Source of the DNA: Octopus sinensis
Taxonomy: Eukaryota
Assembly: GCF_006345805.1 (NCBI RefSeq)
Contig: NC_043016.1
Coordinates: forward strand, 29,946,001-30,010,000
Length of the DNA: 64,000 nucleotides
Direction: 5' to 3'
The notes under the pieces are model-generated. The model was given only the letters and a program-made list of their open reading frames with translations, did no database searches and was not told the DNA's origin. Position numbers and translations under genes: made by a program. Shown here piece by piece: positions 1,829 through 57,420 of the stretch (within the stretch, counting starts at the first letter, position 1; each line of letters opens with the position of its first letter).

Positions 1829-2085
1829 TGTGAACAAGCTTGTTTGTTTGAAAAGCTGGACCTCTTTGAGTAAGTATCAGTTTGTTTACTTGCACAAATC
1901 CTTGTACAGACCACTTTGCATCTCTGTTTAATTTGTCTGTGGAGAAATCTATAGAAGACGGATATCTATATATTTCTCCACAGATAAATAAAACAGAAAT
2001 GCAATGTTTTCTGTACAAGGATTTGTGCAAGTAAACAAACTGATACTTACTCAAAGAGGTTCAGCTTTTCAAACAAACATTCACA
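1829..2085. repeat. Long near-perfect inverted repeat (hairpin), arms ~110-120 bp
   Basis: TGTTTGTTTGAAAAGCTGGACCTCTTTGAGTAAGTATCAGTTTGTTTACTTGCACAAATCCTTGTACAGA... (1841) pairs with ...TCTGTACAAGGATTTGTGCAAGTAAACAAACTGATACTTACTCAAAGAGGTTCAGCTTTTCAAACAAACA (2079). The loop is at about 1955-1963. Confidence 0.92.
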
Positions 2086-3247
2086 GATGATACTATTAAA
2101 TGTTGCTCTCAGTCATACACGCACACAGTAAATTGTCCACTGGTTATGTGTTTTTGAAAACATGAAAAAAAAAGAGAGAGAGAGAGAGAGAGATCTTATG
2201 AAAGTTAGCAACAGGAAGGGCAACCAGCTGTTAAAAGACTGCCTGCCTCAATAATATATTCTAACTCATGCCAGAATAGGAAATTGGACATAAAAGTGAA
2301 CGGGGGAAAAATAGTGAATATATACATATATACAGGTGCATACATTCATTGACACACCACACATCCATTTGAGCTTATGCACAAGTGGATGATAGATGGA
2401 TGTATGAATGTATTCCTATATTACATAACTGTATATACATATTATCAGCTTTCAGTCAAGCAATCATTAGGATTCAGTTACTTTTCCCTGGTTGCCAAGA
2501 GAACGCATGTTTATTACTTACTTTACGATAAATGTAAGCATGGTCATGCTAGGCCTAACCTTATGTACATGCATACCACTGCAAAGCTGGCTGTGATCAG
2601 GTGAGGCCCAACCTTATTTACATATATGTACATCAGCTATGTAAATGAACTGTAGTATTGACACAGAGCTTGAGATTAAATTTGTAACCAAAGATATAAT
2701 GACATGTTTAATAAGCATATAGATTAGCAATTAACGTTGCAGGATTTTAGGCCCAACAAAGCACGCGCAATATCAATTCTATCCACCTTATTGGCATGAC
2801 CCGGAGACAAGCCTCAATGAGATATCTTGTGTCAATAAAGACTTCAGGCTCTGAAGTGTGAGAGCATTATGATTTACAGCTAGCACATGATGATCTCATA
2901 AATGACCAAGACCACTCTTTCCCCAATAGCTTTTATATTCATAATATAAACCTACACTAAAGTTACAAGAAAGCTTAGGAAGGCACCAACAAGAGACCTA
3001 ATAGTTGGATACTTATTGAATGTAGAAACATTCTTTAAGAATAACTGAAAGGTACCACACTCCAAATGGTTTTTATGACATATCCAACACTAATCTGAAG
3101 TTTCTAAGTCTCTATATTAGACATATAGGCACACACACACTCACATGTACATAGACAAACATACATACATACACACAGGCATATACATATGCACATATTT
3201 ATATACATATATACAATCAAATAAGTATATGTGTGTATATATAATTT

Positions 3248-3740
3248 ATGTTCAGTTAACTGAAAATAAGAAAATAAAGAGCTAAAAGTTATAATTATTT
3301 ATTATTAAAAAATTGGTAATCTTTACTTCTTACAGCTGTTTCCATTAGTGCCCAATAAGTGAATTAAAAATAATTGTGCTCTAAATTTGCATTTATATGT
3401 TATGAGCATAATTTCATCAGAGGAAAAGATATACATTACAATATTACATTCCGACCGCTCTGTTCAGTCTGCTTGCTTGAATGGATAGGTCAGAATGTAA
3501 TACTGTAATGTATATCTTTTCCTCTGATGAAGTTATGCTCATAACATATAAATGCAAATTTAGAGCACAATTATTTTTAATTTACTTCTTCTTCATCATC
3601 ATCGTTTAACATCCGCCTTCCATGCTACTCATTGGGCATTAATGAAAATGGCTGTAAGAAATAAAGATTACCAATTTTTTAATAATAAATAATTATTAAC
3701 TTTTAACTCTCCATTTTCTTTCCTTCAATTAACTGAACAT
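3248..3740. mobile_element. Palindromic non-autonomous element made of two inverted hammerhead-bearing arms (Penelope pLTR-like)
   Basis: 3248-3456 is the reverse complement of about 3488-3740. The right arm is interrupted by a ~40-bp RTE-tail fragment (3587-3626). Flanked by TA-rich microsatellite. Confidence 0.8.
3320..3429 (-). ncRNA. Type I hammerhead ribozyme motif with canonical core
   Basis: The minus strand reads TCTTTTCCT-CTGATGA-AATTATGCTCA...TGGGCACTAATG-GAAAC-AGCT-GTA-AGAAGTAAAGA, with a palindromic CAGCTG stem III and a GUA triplet. Confidence 0.7.
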
Positions 3741-3989
3741 ATATACCTATATATATATATATCTATATATATATATACCTATAGATTTATGGAAATTTCA
3801 TTGCCCAAAATTACTAGGTATAGAACCAGTGTTTCCTTGGATGATGTAGCCATCCCTTTATGAGGCTAACATATCATCTAAGCAACTTATACATACATAT
3901 ATATATATATTGTCAGGAAGATCTTAAGTCAATTTGGTTTAAGATCTGGAATGAAAGGGATTTCAGTCAGGATGGCTAGATATAATCAA

Positions 3990-6140
3990 GAAGGAATACC
4001 AGATTAAAATCACCAGTAAAATTTACATGATCAACTTTGAAAACTTTCACTAAAGCTATGAGAAAGTTTGAGAAGGCACTAAGAAGAGATCTAATAGTTG
4101 GATACTGCTATTAGATATTGATGTTCTACAAAACGTAACTTAATATATATAAAAGAACTATGAAAAAGCCAAATCAGCATAACATACTGACTTGCCATAG
4201 CACAGAGAAATCTTGTAACCAAGTTTGAAAGCACCAGCTTGGCAGAAAACTAGAAGTCAATTGCTTGTCTAAACATTTATGCATAAACCATACACAAACT
4301 GTCTCAACCAATGCCTGCAAGACATTGTGTGTCCAACAAGATAGTAACGAATGGCTGACAAGTGGAAAGAAAGTAGTGTGGAGGAATTACCAAACAGATT
4401 TCTTGTGATAGTAAGGATTTATTACAGAAAGGTATTGTTTCTTCCCCCCCCCCCTTTCATGGATGTTGAAATTGTTGGAGTCAGCAAAAACACCCACTGC
4501 TTCAGATGTTGCCACTGAAAGGATCACAAAAACCTGGCCAACAATCTTCACACATATAAATGGAAGCGAAATTATTGTCTCCAAAGATTATAAATTTTTC
4601 AAAGAGAATAATTCAAGAAGATGGTATGTCTGCATTACTGTATATTTTGGCACTAAATCCACTGTCCTTTCTTTTACAAAGATCCTCTGATTATGTGTTA
4701 GATTTTACAACAGTAAAGGATAATAATGTAAGCCATAATTTTGTTGTGGATGATCTAAAGATCTATACTAGATATATATATAATGCTGAAAAATAGTTGA
4801 ATCTGGTAACAACATTTTCAAGTGATAAAAGTGATAAAAGAAGAGGATTTGATAAAAAAAAACAACACAAAAATACCCCCAGTTTATATCTGATACTTGA
4901 AAGCAGAAAATTTGCTTTCCAAACTCATGACCTCTACCCAATGGTCTCCCTATATTCCCCTATTTCATTAAAACTTATACATGCTACAAAAACCTAGGTA
5001 TTGATGAAAATGCATCATAGAAAGGTACTGTGAACAAAGAATATTTATATCAGACTTCAAAAAAATAAAACAGACAGGAGTCTTATAAGAAGGCAATGTC
5101 TCACAATGCATTAACAATATCAGTAACGATACCAACATTTCAGATACTTGGCTTCTCTGTGGAGGAAATCCATTCCACAGATACTAAAGTCTGTAAGATC
5201 CTGACTTTAACTTGAAGCTTTTAAGAAACAATGCTACAGTCAGATTCTATCTCAAAAGAAAAGAGGCTTCAGTTCAGTCGGTTTCACTCAGACAGCATCA
5301 TCTAAACAAGGCAACAAAAAATTCATCAATCAAGTGTTCAAAAAAATGAAGAGAACAACATCCTGCAGGTCAATAGAGAACTTTTCGAGAAATACAGTAC
5401 TTACTTTGTGATGACCTATGAGAACTCAGATATGCAAGACCAATGTGTCTCAGCAAAGATTGGGAAGAGAAACATTCTACATACCACAAAAAAAGGTTAT
5501 GCATGGGTGTGTTTCTTACAAACTTGAAGAGAATGATAATGTTAATATTTCAGGTGACTCATAACTGTTACATTACATCATACCTCGAAGATTATGCTTT
5601 TGTAATCCAACAGAAGGAAAATAACTACAGAACATCTAAAATTAATAAATGATATAAAGAAGCCATTAAAACACCAAAATGTGACCAAAAATGTTGATAA
5701 TGTCACATTTCTGTGGAGGTAATATGCGATTAGCAGTCACCCATAATGTCTTTTAAATACTACTTTCCAATGTGGCATCATGATATTAGCTAAACCAATA
5801 TAAAATGTCGTCTGTAGGAAAGATTGTCCTGGGAGAAATACAGATAATGCCTCTGTTACTGAATATATATCAATACAAAGAATATCAGAACATACCTATC
5901 AAGCACAAATATAATCAACCTGACAAAGTTGTTTGGGATAGAAAAGAAAAAATTATGCACAATCACAGAGATTATCTGCCCAGTAGAGATGAATCTCTCT
6001 CTTTCAGGATCGGTGAGAAAGAAAAATAATTACAAACATTTACTTTGCAAAAATACATCTTAGATTTGTTAGTAATTCACTTGGATTTGTTGGTAAACAT
6101 CTGAGGGGAATTATCAAAAAGCTAAGGTTTTCAAATGTTA
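3990..6140 (+). mobile_element. Heavily decayed RLE-type non-LTR retrotransposon (R4/Dong-like)
   Basis: RT remnants RIIQEDGMSALLYILALNPLS and HNFVVDDLKIY (cf. G.FQGD.LS.L.F.LALNPLS, HL.Y.DDLKLY), and an RLE-like IPIKHKYNQPDKVVWDRKEK near 5900. Many stops and frameshifts. Confidence 0.7.
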
Positions 6141-9100
6141 GAATCTACAGTAGCAAGAGACATCAAAGTAACCCATAATCTTTGTTGATGATTTAAAAAT
6201 CTACAGTGGAAATATTTACTATGCTGAGAATAGCTGGATTTAATAACACTTTAAGCTGATATTGTGATAGATTGGCTGAAAGGTTTTATTCATACTTGAT
6301 GGATGGATACAGAAAAACTATTTCCTAAAACCTTTACGTCAATATTCTCAACCCTGCCCCCACTGCTCTCTGATTTATTTAGGTCCTGATCAGAATGTAT
6401 GATATAATGTATAATTTTGTACTAACTGCTGTGAAAACAGATGTAAGTTAGGACCAGTTTAGAAATGTAACTTGAATAAGAATTGGATTGATTAAAGCAA
6501 ATAAGAACAAAAGGTGTTACAATGAGAGGAAAATTAAGATTAATGCATTTAATAGGGTTCTTTGTTGGAGAAGAATTGGGAGGGAATGCTCAGTATTTCT
6601 TCTTATGATACATCAATAAAGCATTTCCTTTCACAGACTATTACCAGTCTACCAATTCTGGTGACCATCTCAAGACAAAGGTAGGGAAGGGAACCTAGAA
6701 AATGTTAGAAACTAAACTCTTTTACTTGTTTCAGCCATTTGACTGTAGCCATGCTGGAGCACCACCTCTAGTCAAGCAAATCGACCCCAGGACTTATTCT
6801 TTGTAAGCTTAGTACTTATTCTATCGGTCTCTTTTGCTGAACCGCTAAGTTACGGGAATGTAAACGCACCAGTATCGGTTGTCAAGCGATGTTGGAGGGA
6901 TAAACACAGACACACAAACGTATACACACACACACATACATATATATGTATATACATATATACGATGGGCTTCTTTCAGTTTCCATCTACCAAATCCACT
7001 CACAAGGCTTTGGTCAGCCCGAGGCTAGAGTAGAAGACACTTGCCTAAGGTGTCACACATTGGGACTGAACCTGGAACCATGTAGTTCGTAGGAAAAAAT
7101 ATATTAATTGGAGGGAAATTTCTTTATTGAATTTTTTAAAAAAAGGATTTCGTTTTTAATGATTCAAATTAAAATATTATTCGGTGCTATATTTGAGTAA
7201 GTTCACAATAAAATCTTGAAACATTGATGTGTATACAAAGGCTGGCAGAGCAGTAGCCTCATGTTTGATTACCAATGTAATACTAATGAATAACAAACAA
7301 GAAACTATTAACAAAATAAGAATTACATTATAGACAATTGTATAGCATCAAATATAATTTGGCATCGGTACAGCAAAGAAATTTATAATGGCCATAACTT
7401 ACTAATTTAGAGTAGTTTAATTGTTACAAAACACTAAACTTAACCATTTTTCTTTTTTCTTTTTCTTTATTTTTATGTATATTTCTCTTGAACTACATTG
7501 CCTTTGTTATTTGTTTACTTTACTCTAATGTCCATTGGTCATCATGGGTCAGATGAGATCTCCTTTGAGTAGTATTTCCAGGTTGGATGTCCTTGCTATT
7601 GCCAACCTTTGTTCATTTTTCAAGTAAAGGATTGTTTTTTATTCCACTGGTTTTCAAACAGCAATACATCAACAAAGAATGCAAAGATTATGTCACTGTT
7701 TCCTGCAAGCAGTGACAAGCAGTGACAAGCAAAGCTGTGGAATGCCAACACATGCATGCACATGACAGGTTTCCACATACTTTCCATCTACCAAACTTCA
7801 CAATCTATCTGTCAACCTCCATAAAGTGCTACTCTTAGGAATTGAACACAGAACCTCATAGTTACAAAGCAGTCTTCTTAACCAGACAGCCATGATGGTC
7901 TGTGACAACATTTATTGCAGTTTGTATATCCATGAAACCCAGCAATATTTAGCCAGGTGTGTCACCTTCCCTAACAAAACAACAGTAATGCAGGCTTCAA
8001 TGTTAGTCACAAGGAACAATGTTTACAGAAGAGAAACAAACTGAATCAATAACAATTTCTCACAGGTACTTATTGTTTCATGAGGCATGAAATGTAAAAT
8101 CTATCTGGGTAGGTTTTAAAATCTGAATGCTGATAGAATAAAAATATATTTTTAAATAAGATTAAATGCAACAGAGCTGGGTGGGTTTTTATTTTTTTTT
8201 ATTTTTACCAATCTCACCATTTTTTTTTCAATTACTTTTGAAAATAATGAAGAATTCAGTAAAATAACTTGTCTTCATTAAGGTAGTATTTGAAATATAA
8301 ATTAACATGTAATCTTTTTGGAAGGTCTTAATTTAACAGGAAATTTGTCTCTTATATCAGGAGTGGTTTCAAGTGGTTTGAAATCAAATGAGTTAAAAGA
8401 TATATGTAACTATTAGAAAATGTATAAGTGCCACTAAATACTTATACTAATTCACATGGCTCCAGATGTGTGAATGACTAGAGATATAATTAGAGTTACA
8501 CATGGCAGAACTGAGGCCTATAATTTAAAAATAAAAATAATAATAAAGTTTTTTTTTTAATCAAAGATCAGCTGGATTAAGTCTGGGTTGGATCTGAATC
8601 AATAAAATCAATTTTGTGTGAGCAGTCTCACCTTAATTTTAAATGTCCTTTCTCTTATTGTTAACATCAGTTACAGCTCATCATCATCATCGTTTAATGT
8701 CCGCTTTCCATGCAGGCATAGGTTGGACGAGTTTGACTGAAGACTGGCAAGCCAGGAAGCTGCATCAGGCTCCAATCTGATCTGGCAAGGTTTCTACAGC
8801 TCGATGTCCTTCCTAATGCCAACCACTCCGAGCGTAGTGGGTGCTTTTTACATGCCACCGGCATGGGGGCCAGTCAGGTGGTACTGGCATCGACCACGCC
8901 CGAATGGTGCTTTTTACATGCCAGTCAGACAGCACTGGTATCGACCACGCTGAAATGGTGCGTTTTGCATGCCACTGGCACAGGAGCAAGTCAGGCAGCA
9001 CTGGCAACAACAATGTGAGAAAATGTCTCTTCCTCTTCTAAAGTTTGCTCACTTTTGATCATTTTTAGAAGAAAGTTAGTTTAAATCTTGATCATGTCAA

Positions 9101-27238: not shown

Positions 27239-28289
27239 TTAATGTATTACAAAAGATATTACTTTTAAAATGCATTGGTTGCCAATGTAAAAAAAAAAAC
27301 ATTTTCAAATGTCCTGAACTGGATTGATTTCATTTGATAGAGACTTGGCTGTTATTTATACCCCATTTATTATCCCCCCTGCCATTGACATCTACAAGTT
27401 TTCATAACAGCTACACTAACACAGGCATACCTTAAGTTATGTTGGTGATCATCTCCAAGCCACGCAGCTTAACTTGAAAAATGATGTAGCACGCAAAAAC
27501 ACTTTAATATTGTTTATTTGCTTGTATCTGTTTAAATAAATGGATTGTACATATTTTTACATGTACTTTATTTGAGTGTCTTCTTCAGCATTGGTTTCCA
27601 GGTGGTCTTTCTTTCTTTTATGTTCCTGCTTTTTTAATGTTTGCTGAGATTGATGGAAAGCTGAATAAAATGACTGAAGTTGAGGCTAATTCTTTTTCTA
27701 TTAATTTCTTTAAAAAAAATACAACATAAAGTGAAAAAAGATGTAACTAAAAAACAACATAAGTTGAGTGCAGTTACACCTGGATTAAATCCAAATGGAA
27801 ACTTAACTAAAGAAGAAATATGTTTAGACATGAATTTTCCTAGGTTCAAAACCTTGGAAATAACTTTGATAACAAGAACACAACTTACAGCAACATGGCT
27901 AGAGGTACAAATGAGTGAAGAAATAAACCAAATTTGCTATTAATATCTGAATGGTAAGCACATTCAAAAGACATTCAGTTTATTTATTGTTCTGTTCTAC
28001 ACTATCAAAGAACTAAATATAGTTGTAATATATAAAAAGACTGGTATGCTAGTTAAGTGTTTGCCAAACTAGCTAAATTTTGCTGGCACATACAGCTTAA
28101 CTTTAAGAAGTAAACAAAAGCAGAAGAAAACACAGTTACAAGGCTCTTAGCTAAATATCACATCATATTTAAAAAATAATAATCAAAAACTATCTAACAG
28201 CACAGATTTACTACTACTACTACTACTACTACTACTCAGAGTGAACTTCAAAAGTTGAAGTAACATTATAAAGTAAAAATATATATATA

Positions 28290-29511
28290 TATCTATACAA
28301 TATGTTACATTACTCGGTAGTCAAGATAAAACTCTGAGTTTCAGATGCCGAAGTGGAAATCCACAACACCATCTCTTCGGTTATCTGGCTATTTGAAAAC
28401 GTTATGAAAAAATACCGTTAAAAATGAAGGGAAATTACTCTGTTATAACTCTGCTTTGCCTGCGTACTTATACATCGCTCGCATTTTTCGTCATAAAAAT
28501 TATATAAAAATACATAAAAATATATAAAAATATATAAATTCTTCTTGGGACATAACATAGAAAGCCTGTTCTATCCGATTTCTTTAGGGGACCAAAAACG
28601 TAACAGAAATTTAGTCACATGTGGGCATGATCCGAAAAACTCTGTCCTTGTATTTAGACATGTGGTAGGGTCTAAGCTGCTTTTCCAGATAAGCCATCTC
28701 TCCATGTCGCATAAACCGCACCTTCCGCTGCCGTTAGTATAGGGCTTACATCTGGCCAAAATCTTCCATTGTATGTATAATCGACACCTTTATCTCTTAA
28801 AGACCAAATATGATTGGATAATTGTGTCGCTTTTCTTTTGTTCCAGTGCCTAAAGCTCAAAGTGTGGTTATTGAACCTGGCCTTGAAATTACCCTCTGTA
28901 AGGCCCACGTATTTCTTCGTCGAAACGGTGTCTTTAGTGGTTATAGAGTTTACGGTAGCTTCATATATGATGGTCTTGGACATGCAAGCTCCATTTAGCG
29001 GGCACAATTCTTTATTCCTGCATGAACAGCTGTTTTCTTCTTGTGTTTTTTGTATGTTATGATTGATTATGTTTTTAAAATTGGTAGTTGAACTAAAACT
29101 AATTTTTAAATTGTGTCTATTGAAGAGTTTCCTATAAGCATGGTTAACTGGAAAATGTCTATCTATCAGTGCTAGGAATATTTACCTATATTGAAGGCCA
29201 CCTCGGGTGAGTAAGGGGGTGTAAACCAGATGACCTTCCTATTTCTATTCTTCCTTTTCCTTACTGTTGGGCTAGTGATAGGTGTATATTTTATTTTTTC
29301 GCTAAAACCACTATCTTTTAAAGCTTTATTATAAACTGGGGCAACGCTATTGAAGATGTCCTCATTAGATGAGAGGCTAGAAATCCTCTTACTAATATTT
29401 TTAACTAAATTTTTGAATACTATAGGGGGATGGCATGAACCTACATTAATATAACTTAGTCTATCATTGGGCTTCCTATAAGGCTTATAAATATTATTAT
29501 TAAGATCTAAG
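28290..29511 (-). mobile_element. Inverted partial copy of the same Penelope-like element
   Basis: Reverse complement of about 29654-30870 with few differences. ORFs 28672-29007 and 28571-28759 encode the same GIY-YIG peptide, split by a 1-nt deletion. Confidence 0.93.
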
Positions 29512-30935
29512 ATGATGCCCTCGCCTTAACAGCTAATACAAATGGACCAGCACAAGATCGTTTTAGGAAGGATATTATCCAGTTAATGAAACACTTCGGA
29601 CTTAGTATAACTATAGACACTAACCTGACGGTTGTCAATTTCTTAGACGTTTCCTTAGATCTTAAAAATATTTATAAGCCTTATAGGAAGCCCAATGATA
29701 GACTAAGTTATATTAATGTAGGTTCATGCCATCCCCCTATAGTATTCAAAAATTTAGTTAAAAATATTAGTAAGAGGATTTCTAGCCTCTCATCTAATGA
29801 GGACATCTTCAATAGCGTTGCCCCAGTTTATAATAAAGCTTTAAAAGATAGTGGTTTTAGTGAAAAAATAAAATATACACCTATCACTAGCCCAACAGTA
29901 AGGAAAAGGAAGAATAGAAATAGGAAGGTCATCTGGTTTACGCCCCCTTACTCACCCGAGGTGGCCTTCAATATAGGTAAATATTTCCTAGCACTGATAG
30001 ATAGACATTTTCCAGTTAACCATGCTTATAGGAAACTCTTCAATAGACACAATTTAAAAATTAGTTTTAGTTCAACTACCAATTTTAAAAACATAATCAA
30101 TCATAACATACAAAAAACACAAGAAGAAAACAGCTGTTCATGCAGGAATAAAGAATTGTGCCCGCTAAATGGAGCTTGCATGTCCAAGACCATCATATAT
30201 GAAGCTACCGTAAACTCTATAACCACTAAAGACACCGTTTCGACGAAGAAATACGTGGGCCTTACAGAGGGTAATTTCAAGGCCAGGTTCAATAACCACA
30301 CTTTGAGCTTTAGGCACTGGAACAAAAGAAAAGCGACACAATTATCCAATCATATTTGGTCTTTAAGAGATAAAGGTGTCGATTATAACATACAATGGAA
30401 GATTTTGGCCAGATGTAAGCCCTATACTAACGGCAGCGGAAGGTGCGGTTTATGCGACATGGAGAGATAGCTTATCTGGAAAAGCAGCTTAGACCCTACC
30501 ACATGTCTAAATACAAGGACAGAGTTTTTCGGATCATGCCCACATGTGACTAAATTTCTGTTACGTTTTTGGTCCCCTAAAGAAAACGGATAGAACATGC
30601 TTTCTGTGTTATGTCCCAAGAATTTATATATTTTTATATATTTTATGTATTTTTATATAATTTTTATGACGAAAAATGCGAGCGATGTATAAATACGCAG
30701 GCAAAGCAGAGTTATAACAGAGTAATTTCCCTTCATTTTTAACGGTATTTTTTCATAACGTTTTCAAATAGCCAGATAACCGAAGAGATGGTGTTGTGGA
30801 TTTCCACTTCGGCATCTGAAACTCAGAGTTTTATCTTGACTACCGAGTAATGTAACATATTGTATAGATAAATTTCCTCTATTTACATAATATTGAGGTC
30901 TCTTTCTTTCTTTTGTTATCTTACTGTTTTATCAA
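29511..30935 (+). mobile_element. Penelope-like retroelement, 5'-truncated (RT C-terminal part + GIY-YIG endonuclease + 3' pLTR)
   Basis: In frame from 29511: DDALAL...VNFLDVSLDL..YKPYRKPND..YINVGSCHPP (RT palm end/thumb), WFTPPYS, CSC..CPL.GAC, IIYEATV..KKYVGLT..FKARFNNH (GIY-YIG), CGLC. There is a premature TAG at 30468-30470; the natural stop is at 30591-30593. Ends in (TA)n. Confidence 0.92.
30774..30836 (+). ncRNA. Type I hammerhead-ribozyme-like motif with variant core in the Penelope pLTR (mirror copy at 28324-28386, minus strand)
   Basis: AGATAA-CCGAAGA-GATG...CATC-T-GAAA-CTC-A-GAG-TT-TTATCT gives stem I, a CUGANGA-like core with U4->C, stem II, GAAA, a short stem III and a GUU triplet. 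Penelope pLTRs are known to carry minimal hammerheads. Confidence 0.65.
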
Positions 30936-56097: not shown

Positions 56098-56279
56098 CTG
56101 TAATAAGAAAGCAGGCCATTCTGTAAGACAAACCATCGTCTTTGGTAGCCTTTCAGGTAATTTGTCCACTTGTTCAGCCAGCCTTTGTACTGGTCAGTCT
56201 GGTGCAGTTTTGGTTCAGACATACCAGTCGATTTTAATGATCCTGGTCCAAGCTCATAGCCTGTCGAAGAACTGTCCAT
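56098..56279 (-). CDS. OSBP: First recognisable coding exon of an oxysterol-binding protein (OSBP/OSBP2-like), N-terminal half of the PH domain
   Basis: The translation ...[31 protein letters not shown] matches the OSBP PH signature ([26 protein letters not shown]). It ends at a phase-2 donor TACAG|GTGAGC with GT at 56097-56096. The start could be ATG 56279 or the downstream Met in MSEPK. The following PH sequence (..EM.HTCRG.INL) was not found in the window. Confidence 0.9.
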
Positions 56280-57420
56280 GGAGTTTATCCCTCAATTTTC
56301 AAGGGGTGGGGGGAAAACCCTTGTGTGTTTTTTTTGTTTGTTGTTTTTTTTTTTGGCTTTTTTTTTTTTTTTAAGACCACAGAACGATTGAGTTGCTTGT
56401 CTGTCTGTCGGTCCGTACGTCTTCCTTTTTGGTCGTCTGTCTATCAGCAGTCAGTTCCTGTTTTCTTCTTTTTTTATATCTATCCCTCTCTCTCTCTGTC
56501 TGTGTAATATATTACTTTTTTTTCCCCTTCTGCCACTATTAATTTATATAGATCTTTTCTCTAAATTCTTCCTTTGCCGTTTATTGCTATTATTACAATT
56601 TATTACTCTCTCTCTCTGTCTGTCTCCCTCTCTTTCCCTTTGTGGCTTTTCTATGTATCTATCTAACTATTTCTAAACTCGTGGAATTATGACAACATCG
56701 CTGTCACACCTTGTGCGTGTATATCTGTGTCCACCAGAGCACCACTTTCTCTCTATCAACTCTTACCTGCTCTGTTGCTGCCATTCCAATATGCCAATAT
56801 GGCAGCCTAGACACGTCACACACGGTCGTGGCAGTGGGAGTAGAACGAGAGAGGGAGTAGTAGGGTGTAGCAGCAGCATCAGCAGCAGCAGCAACAGCGA
56901 AAAACTTAGTAGTAGTAGTAGTAGTAGTAGTAATGATGACGGTTGCGCCGATTAGGGTTATAGTGATGTGTAGTAGTAGTAGTTATAGTGGTAAATCGCC
57001 GTCGTGGTGGTAATGCTGATGATGTATTGTGGCAGTAATAGAGATGGTGTCGTCGTCGCCGTCGTCGTAGTATTAGTAGTAATATTAGTAGTAGTAGTAG
57101 TGCTGGCAGTAGTGGGTGAGGATGACAGTAATGGGTGGCTGCTGCCGTCTCTGCTACTACTACTACTACTACTACTACTATTACTGTTGATAGTATTGTT
57201 GCCGCTACTGCTGGTGCTCGCTATTTTTAATCACCGCCGTCATCATCACCATCGACACCATCACCGATTCTATCGACGGTAGTAGTGGCACTGCTAGCAC
57301 CACCCCAGCAGCAGTAGCATTAACACCCTTAATTGCTGTGATAGAAGCAACATCATCTCTATGACATTCTCTCATTATGTTATCTCGCTAGTTTATTCCC
57401 GTCTGGGTTTAGGCCATTTA
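56280..57420 (-). promoter_or_regulatory. Probable promoter / 5' UTR region of the OSBP-like gene
   Basis: Lies directly upstream of the coding exon, is free of the common TEs and is visibly richer in CpG than the intron. Contains a YY1-like AATATGGC (~56796), a CRE-like ACGTCA (~56813), CCAAT copies and triplet microsatellites. Confidence 0.45.

What the first reader, a model, noticed from the sequence alone, without database searches (positions are those of the whole stretch)
3248..3740. Protein-less palindromic element built from two head-to-head hammerhead ribozymes
Seen: a ~490-bp fold-back in which each arm carries CTGATGA...GAAA(C/A)..GCTGTA. The minus-strand copy has an intact core and palindromic stem III (CAGCTG); the plus-strand copy is mutated and interrupted. 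Established: Penelope pLTRs and retrozymes carry minimal type I hammerheads that cleave as dimers, and retrozymes have them in direct tandem. Inference: an inverted pLTR-only non-autonomous element, possibly an undescribed ribozyme-MITE family. Its intact motif lies on the OSBP sense strand.
Basis: partly seen in the sequence, partly recalled or inferred. Interest (0 to 1): 0.72.

Follow-up and report, generated by a model that had tools for sequence, protein, structure and literature searches.

The report
Folded-back stump of Penelope retrotransposon
This mirror-image DNA with a hammerhead-ribozyme motif on each strand is two back-to-back copies of the tail end of an old, protein-coding Penelope-type jumping gene, likely laid down together in one insertion, so it is a known kind of leftover and not a new self-spreading element.

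Summary
The fold-back and both hammerhead motifs are real, but the element is longer than reported (about 3239-3890) and asymmetric: the right arm carries a further ~130-nt tail. Walking upstream in other genomic copies links the arm to a 3' UTR, a GIY-YIG-type endonuclease and a reverse transcriptase with Hydra-clade motifs; in one copy the tail runs on into the ORF start. The arm is therefore the pseudo-LTR of an old (~10% diverged) Penelope-like family. Head-to-head hammerheads and one-sided tails are published PLE features, and this scan has noted the same in other families on other DNA of this genome. One extra: 5' ends pile up at one initiator-like site (8 of 36; 8 of 25 in a second sample), likely the element's transcription start. 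Cleavage of the host OSBP-family pre-mRNA is unlikely, since the hairpin is predicted to bury the ribozyme. New member of a known kind; low interest.

The parts
3239..3890 (.). Whole insertion: head-to-head pair of 5'-truncated Penelope-like 3' ends, both outer ends merging into TA-rich simple repeats; no target-site duplication seen
3239..3466 (-). Left arm: inverted pLTR copy, family positions 164-390, ending at the short 3' end (no tail); 89% identical to the family majority sequence
3466..3890 (+). Right arm: pLTR copy starting at the 5' hot spot (family position 152) and ending at the long 3' end; 91% identical to the family majority sequence outside insertions
3326..3425 (-). Type I hammerhead motif with intact core (CUGAUGA 3420-3414; GAAAC-AGCU-GUA 3342-3331; predicted cut after 3331), long helix II, A.G at 10.1-11.1, one mismatch in helix I
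3519..3661 (+). Second hammerhead motif, mutated in the GAAA/stem III part and interrupted
3588..3630 (+). 43-nt later insertion, the end of an unrelated very high-copy repeat
3745..3890 (+). One-sided tail (about 130 nt in other copies; here lengthened by TA slippage); in locus L193 the same sequence runs on into the 5' UTR and ORF start
3466..3472 (+). Inversion junction; AGTCTGC start shared by many copies, one base shared between the arms; likely transcription start of the parent (inferred)
56100..56285 (-). Context only: PH-domain exon of an OSBP-family gene; the insertion likely lies in a downstream intron

Best explanation
The element is two 5'-truncated copies of the 3' end (pseudo-LTR with hammerhead motif) of an old protein-coding Penelope-like family with Hydra-clade motifs, joined head to head, and was likely made in one insertion event. 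Shown: homology to RT/endonuclease-coding copies, two discrete 3' ends with the tail on one arm only, variable centres, TA-repeat flanks, a 5' hot spot. Inferred mechanism: the element's protein nicked both strands of a TA-rich target; each nick primed reverse transcription at one of two internal start sites on the element RNA (short end and tail end); one cDNA ran to the RNA's 5' end (the hot spot, likely the pLTR transcription start), the other stopped 12 nt earlier, and the two were joined through a 1-nt overlap. The hammerhead served the parent RNA; here it is a decaying passenger with no likely function.
For: Upstream walk: 3' UTR, endonuclease with CxCx5Cx5C linker, VYQC..YYIG, CxxC and CxH, RT with GGLYRDD and DKT; RT, endonuclease and arm colinear on one strand in L117; tail continuous with the ORF start in L193. 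Exactly one tailed arm in 10 of 10 inverted pairs shown. About 29 of 64 loci hold an adjacent inverted pair and none shares the window's 164/152 junction (counted by eye). An intact sister family (960-aa frame; 50% and 37% identical to this family's RT and endonuclease pieces) has the same layout, including head-to-head hammerheads at its 5' end in L116. Literature: inverted 5'-truncated copy and one-sided tail (PMC8557442; PMC3846280); dual hammerheads 100-700 bp apart on opposite strands (PMC4209133); both-strand nicking and two internal RT start sites (PMC11167929); pLTR promoter (PMC2377424).
Against: No intact ORF of this family was found; its protein is read from broken pieces. Pfam names neither the pieces nor the sister protein; support from profiles is weak (retron RT, E 0.013; GIY-YIG in 2 of 40 relatives, best E 0.0033). 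No tree with reference Hydra proteins was built. The tail (~130 nt) is longer than the published 30-40 bp. The both-strand priming model comes from a Poseidon element in vitro; Arkhipova et al. 2013 prefer self-priming on an antisense template. The transcription-start reading has no RNA evidence. Covariation within the family is weak.
Confidence: 0.92

Rival explanations
1. A palindromic, protein-less ribozyme-MITE family that moves as a whole fold-back unit.
For: High copy number (104 matches from 40 scored of 1199 candidates); sharp outer ends; one arm often starts at a fixed site; two loci have both arms starting at 152-154 (L128, L167).
Against: No second copy has the window's centre among about 29 adjacent pairs; L128 and L167 differ in junction letters; ends are asymmetric, with no terminal inverted repeat at the tailed end and no target-site duplication; the two arms of one insertion are sisters in 7 of 13 pairs, including the window's (95/85 support), instead of left arms grouping with left arms.
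Confidence: 0.03
2. The ~360-nt unit from the 5' hot spot to the tail end is a short RNA of its own, transcribed from solo or folded-back stumps and copied in trans, i.e. an incipient non-autonomous hammerhead retroposon.
For: Hot spot in two samples (8 of 36; 8 of 25); solo unit-length copies exist (L133, L185, L213); the Penelope 3' pLTR can drive transcription (PMC2377424); pLTRs act in trans (PMC3846280); retrozymes are proposed pLTR derivatives (bioRxiv 10.64898/2026.07.22.740005).
Against: Hot-spot arms are scattered over both main clades beside long and ORF-bearing copies (tree poorly resolved, 8 of 49 branches strongly supported). Internal RT initiation in the 5' pLTR of a full-length RNA gives the same unit with no separate master. 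No head-to-tail arrays of the unit were seen in the loci examined.
Confidence: 0.15
3. The intact minus-strand hammerhead cleaves or regulates the host OSBP-family pre-mRNA.
For: Core intact and on the gene's strand; stem III is a perfect palindrome (dimer duplex -11.1 kcal/mol).
Against: In the minus-strand RNA the complementary arm is made first; forcing the hammerhead helices costs about 120 kcal/mol (-203.0 against -322.7). Its partner motif is on the other strand. An intact core is common by age alone (23 of 43 arms). Such motifs cleave poorly in vitro (PMC4209133; PMC11167929).
Confidence: 0.03

Closest known systems
Hydra-clade C-terminal EN+ Penelope-like elements (Craig et al. 2021, PMC8557442; seen: passages, Hydra section, supplement part 2 of 59), e.g. 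Penelope-13_HM with an inverted 5'-truncated copy and a hammerhead on each strand
   Same: RT then GIY-YIG-type endonuclease; DKT, RW(R/K), CxCX5C linker, CxxC and CxH; (TA)n flanks; hammerhead near the 3' end; frequent non-Watson-Crick base opposite base at 10.1-11.1; inverted truncated copy.
   Different: Helix II about 75 nt long against about 10-25 nt in the listed Hydra motifs; tail about 130 nt; sister unit 5.6 kb with an Asn-rich insert against generally under 3 kb; hammerhead sequence unlike the listed Hydra-1_oBim motif (compared by eye).
Adineta vaga EN+ Penelope insertions (Arkhipova et al. 2013, PMC3846280; seen: passages)
   Same: Direct pLTR with adjacent shorter inverted pLTR, head to head; tail on one end; initiator-like motif in the pLTR; Asn-rich ORF inserts.
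   Different: Those often have 8-10-bp target duplications and 31-bp tails; none seen here.
Dual minimal hammerheads on opposite strands in Schistosoma PLE remnants (Cervera and de la Pena 2014, PMC4209133; seen: parts 1-2 of 4)
   Same: Two type I motifs 100-700 bp apart on opposite strands, read as truncated PLEs; palindromic stem III.
   Different: Their consensus has G10.1-C11.1 and a 7-8-bp helix II; here A.G (38 and 36 of 43 arms) and a long helix II.
Non-LTR retrozymes (bioRxiv 10.64898/2026.07.22.740005, seen: part 1 of 5; PMC7229834, search listing only)
   Same: Short, protein-less, type I hammerhead, pLTR-related.
   Different: Retrozymes are head-to-tail tandem repeats with same-strand ribozymes; this is an inverted pair.

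Membership tests
EN+ Penelope-like element | RT followed by GIY-YIG endonuclease, colinear with the pLTR | tested here: met
   L117: RT 3516-3960, endonuclease 5505-5778, arm 7220-7442 on one strand; motif-level, with weak profile support
EN+ Penelope-like element | pLTR with hammerhead motif near the 3' end, repeated before the ORF | tested here: met
   L193: pLTR and tail run into ORF start, second pLTR downstream
EN+ Penelope-like element | Variable 5' truncation, adjacent inverted copy, tail on one end | tested here: met
   (10 of 10 pairs)
Hydra clade | DKT in place of DKG; RWK-type motif | tested here: met
   L119 PSDKT and QRWR; sister protein SDKT and IRWR; third residue is R in these
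Hydra clade | CxCX5C linker, no CCHH in the endonuclease core, CxxC and CxH flanking | tested here: met
   L062, L071, L123; absence of CCHH judged by eye
Hydra clade | (TA)n insertion preference | tested here: met
   most 3' flanks are TA or CA/TG repeats; no background count made
Hydra clade | RT phylogeny with reference Hydra families | not tested
Hydra clade | Generally short (<3 kb); a tendency, not a strict criterion | tested here: not met
   sister repeat unit 5.6 kb; this family spans over 3.9 kb from RT core to end in L117, insertions included
MITE | Uniform copies with shared internal structure | tested here: not met
   centres differ in about 29 adjacent pairs
MITE | Terminal inverted repeats at both ends and a target-site duplication | tested here: not met
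   one-sided tail; no duplication discernible in simple-repeat flanks
Non-LTR retrozyme | Head-to-tail tandem units with same-strand hammerheads | tested here: not met
   inverted pair here; no tandem arrays
Type I hammerhead ribozyme | Conserved core with helices I-III | tested here: met
   core columns 93.9% conserved against 88.9% for 101 others, permutation p 0.013
Type I hammerhead ribozyme | Covariation of helices | tested here: inconclusive
   89.5% cells paired; 7 pairs with two-sided change (90/500 shuffles as high); score 0.103 (6/500), within what relatedness can give
Type I hammerhead ribozyme | Self-cleavage | not testable with these tools
   needs in vitro assay

The most novel reading that the evidence does not exclude
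The ~360-nt unit that starts at the fixed AGTCTGC site and ends at the tail is a promoter-bearing hammerhead RNA that was copied in trans on its own, a caught-in-the-act step from a Hydra-clade Penelope pseudo-LTR to a non-autonomous ribozyme retroposon, and the head-to-head stumps record the element's transcription start and both RT start sites directly in DNA.
Probability: 0.15. Interest if true: 0.5.

Novelty: new member of a known kind. Interest (0 to 1): 0.2.

Why it matters
As a locus it matters little: a decayed insertion in a likely intron. As a family it adds a Hydra-type Penelope lineage with an unusually long hammerhead helix II, and its many short head-to-head stumps give countable genomic evidence on an unsettled point, how Penelope elements make inverted ends: one tailed arm per pair and a 5' hot spot fit both-strand priming at two internal sites on an RNA that starts in the pLTR. 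The intact young sister family (L115, L116) would allow this to be tested.

Tried and rejected
Rfam: no hammerhead family hit, only miRNA-hairpin matches below gathering score, rejected as fold-back artefacts. Pfam on the family's pieces and on the sister protein: nothing relevant. RNA evidence: no RNA holder listed; three contig runs were laid and show neither ends nor strand. Tail search for copies running on into the ORF: none among 30 loci; found only by the ORF-start search. Exact-pattern searches were too strict for an old family (12 and 5 matches). Hammerhead cleavage as the cause of the 5' hot spot: rejected, the predicted cut lies about 145 nt downstream of it. A 3' splice site as the cause: less likely, because many arms keep the AG and no shared upstream exon is seen. 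A quasi-palindrome at the hot spot can explain pairs with both arms there (L167) but not solo arms or pairs with other partners. A downstream promoter element was looked for by eye and not found convincingly. DNA transposon with long terminal repeats: rejected on the one-sided tail and RT homology. Earlier-findings search by sequence returned nothing.

Full report
Observation. The fold-back is real: three blocks of inverted arms between 3244 and 3744 at 74-92%, 87% column identity between arms, folding z-score -33. The minus strand carries CTGATGA (3420-3414) and GAAACAGCTGTA (3342-3331); the plus strand carries CTGATGA (3524-3530) and a mutated GAAAATGGCTGTA (3644-3656), split by a 43-nt insertion at 3588-3630 that is the end of a very high-copy repeat. 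Rfam finds no hammerhead.

Copies. The own-genome search gave 104 matches from 40 scored of 1199 candidates. Of 23 distinct loci fetched, 11 showed an adjacent inverted pair and 12 a single arm by BLAST; some of the latter later showed a distant or tail-only partner. There are two discrete 3' ends about 130 nt apart, and in 10 of 10 pairs with both ends shown exactly one arm has the longer end (one further pair was dropped by the script's filter). Exceptions exist outside that set (L220, inverted arm reaching into the tail). Among 64 loci aligned to the family majority sequence, about 29 hold an adjacent inverted pair (counted by eye) with 5' starts from 18 to beyond 380; none has the window's 164/152 junction. 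The window's arms are 89% and 91% identical to the majority sequence: an old family. In a tree of 52 arms, the two arms of one insertion are sisters in 7 of 13 pairs, the window's at 95/85 support; the tree is poorly resolved (8 of 49 inner branches strongly supported) and no clade test was run. Gene conversion between arms could also give sister arms.

Parent. Solo arms extend upstream through a microsatellite-rich 3' UTR into a broken endonuclease frame with a CxCx5Cx5C linker, VYQC..YYIG, CxxC and CxH, and then an RT with GGLYRDD and FLDVNFNL. In L117 RT, endonuclease and arm lie in order on one strand. In L193 the pLTR and tail run on into a 5' UTR and the ORF start, with an inverted arm beside it and a second pLTR downstream. 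A protein search of the genome found an intact sister family with a 960-residue open frame, 50% and 37% identical to this family's RT and endonuclease pieces, with a long-helix hammerhead in direct repeats and, in L116, an inverted truncated copy that puts two hammerheads head to head. Its motifs (RWR, DKT, CxCX5C linker, CxxC, CxH, no CCHH) match the description of the Hydra clade (PMC8557442, section read). Profile support is weak: no Pfam family for the sister protein, a retron RT at E 0.013 with a 40-sequence profile, GIY-YIG in 2 of 40 members. Of 52 relatives in the protein collection, 2 are named, both from Argonauta hians; earlier notes of this scan call this genome octopus (unchecked).

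Hammerhead. In 43 of the 45 arms found (two with insertions left out; the window's interrupted right arm was not among them) the motif has a 5-bp helix I, a long helix II, and stem III ACGGCUGU or ACAGCUGU, self-complementary as a dimer. 23 of 43 have an intact core; core columns are 93.9% conserved against 88.9% (p 0.013). Covariation is weak, and CpG decay could explain the stem III variants (inference). Positions 10.1-11.1 are A.G in most arms (38 and 36 of 43); unpaired bases there are common in the Hydra motifs listed in the supplement of PMC8557442 (part 2 of 59 read). In the host, a PH exon at 56100-56285 and oxysterol-binding exons about 140 kb away, both on the minus strand, put the insertion in a likely intron. 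Forcing the hammerhead fold inside the whole minus-strand RNA costs about 120 kcal/mol, so cleavage of the pre-mRNA is unlikely.

A 5' hot spot. In a search with the tail only, 8 of 36 tailed arms start at family positions 151-156 (three longer arms left out; some starts adjusted by eye; binomial P 5e-7 against a uniform spread, 3e-5 after 49 windows). A second search with the tail of another subfamily gave 8 of 25 new loci at 149-156 (5 of 30 dropped as already seen; P 2e-7). The site is ATTT|AGTCTGC, 58 nt before the hammerhead core; its likeness to a Drosophila-type initiator is recalled, not tested. Penelope has an internal pLTR promoter (PMC2377424, passages and Discussion read), and initiator-like motifs are noted in Adineta pLTRs (PMC3846280, passages). 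Hot-spot arms are spread among long and ORF-bearing copies, which favours repeated production from the parent RNA over a separate short master.

Mechanism. PAc protein nicks and extends both strands and starts reverse transcription at two internal sites that bound the tail (PMC11167929, main text read). Applied here (inference): one strand primed at the tail end and ran to the RNA start, the other primed at the short end and stopped 12 nt earlier; the products joined head to head with one shared base. Self-priming on an antisense template is the published alternative.

Comparison. Inverted truncated copies and one-sided tails are standard for EN+ PLEs, dual opposite-strand hammerheads were described in 2014 (PMC4209133, parts 1-2 of 4), and a Hydra element with a hammerhead on each strand is listed. 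Four paper searches returned no description of this family or of a palindromic hammerhead MITE; Repbase and subscription papers were not searchable and 58 of 59 parts of the supplement were searched by term only, so an existing annotation is possible. Verdict: new member of a known kind; interest 0.2.

Noticed in passing
L115:2249-5128 (+) and L116:4193-7072 (-); G000 C26 and C4: Young, intact Hydra-type Penelope family: 960-residue open frame with an Asn-rich insert, copies 98-99% alike, long-helix hammerhead in the pLTR, ~180-nt tail, inverted truncated copy in L116.
   Followed up: partly
window 28287-30873: Young inverted repeat with 98-100% arms; the minus-strand read of 28251-28800 shows a hammerhead-like GAAAC-TCA-GAGTT stretch; possibly another head-to-head Penelope unit.
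   Followed up: no
window 1841-2079: Second fold-back, 115-nt arms at 93% with a 9-nt centre, unrelated in sequence.
   Followed up: no
window 2948-3013 and 4041-4106: 66-nt direct repeat at 83% on either side of the element, 1093 nt apart; too far from the ends to be a target duplication.
   Followed up: no
window 3588-3630: 43-nt piece of a very high-copy repeat inserted in the right arm.
   Followed up: partly
L052:1281-1412, L118:7419-7549, L079:471-600: Older subfamily with a U-A to C-G change in helix I (2 arms) and U at position 10.1.
   Followed up: partly
G000, whole genome: Many further Hydra-type RT copies (150 scored of 4851 candidates), several with open frames of 700-960 residues.
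   Followed up: no
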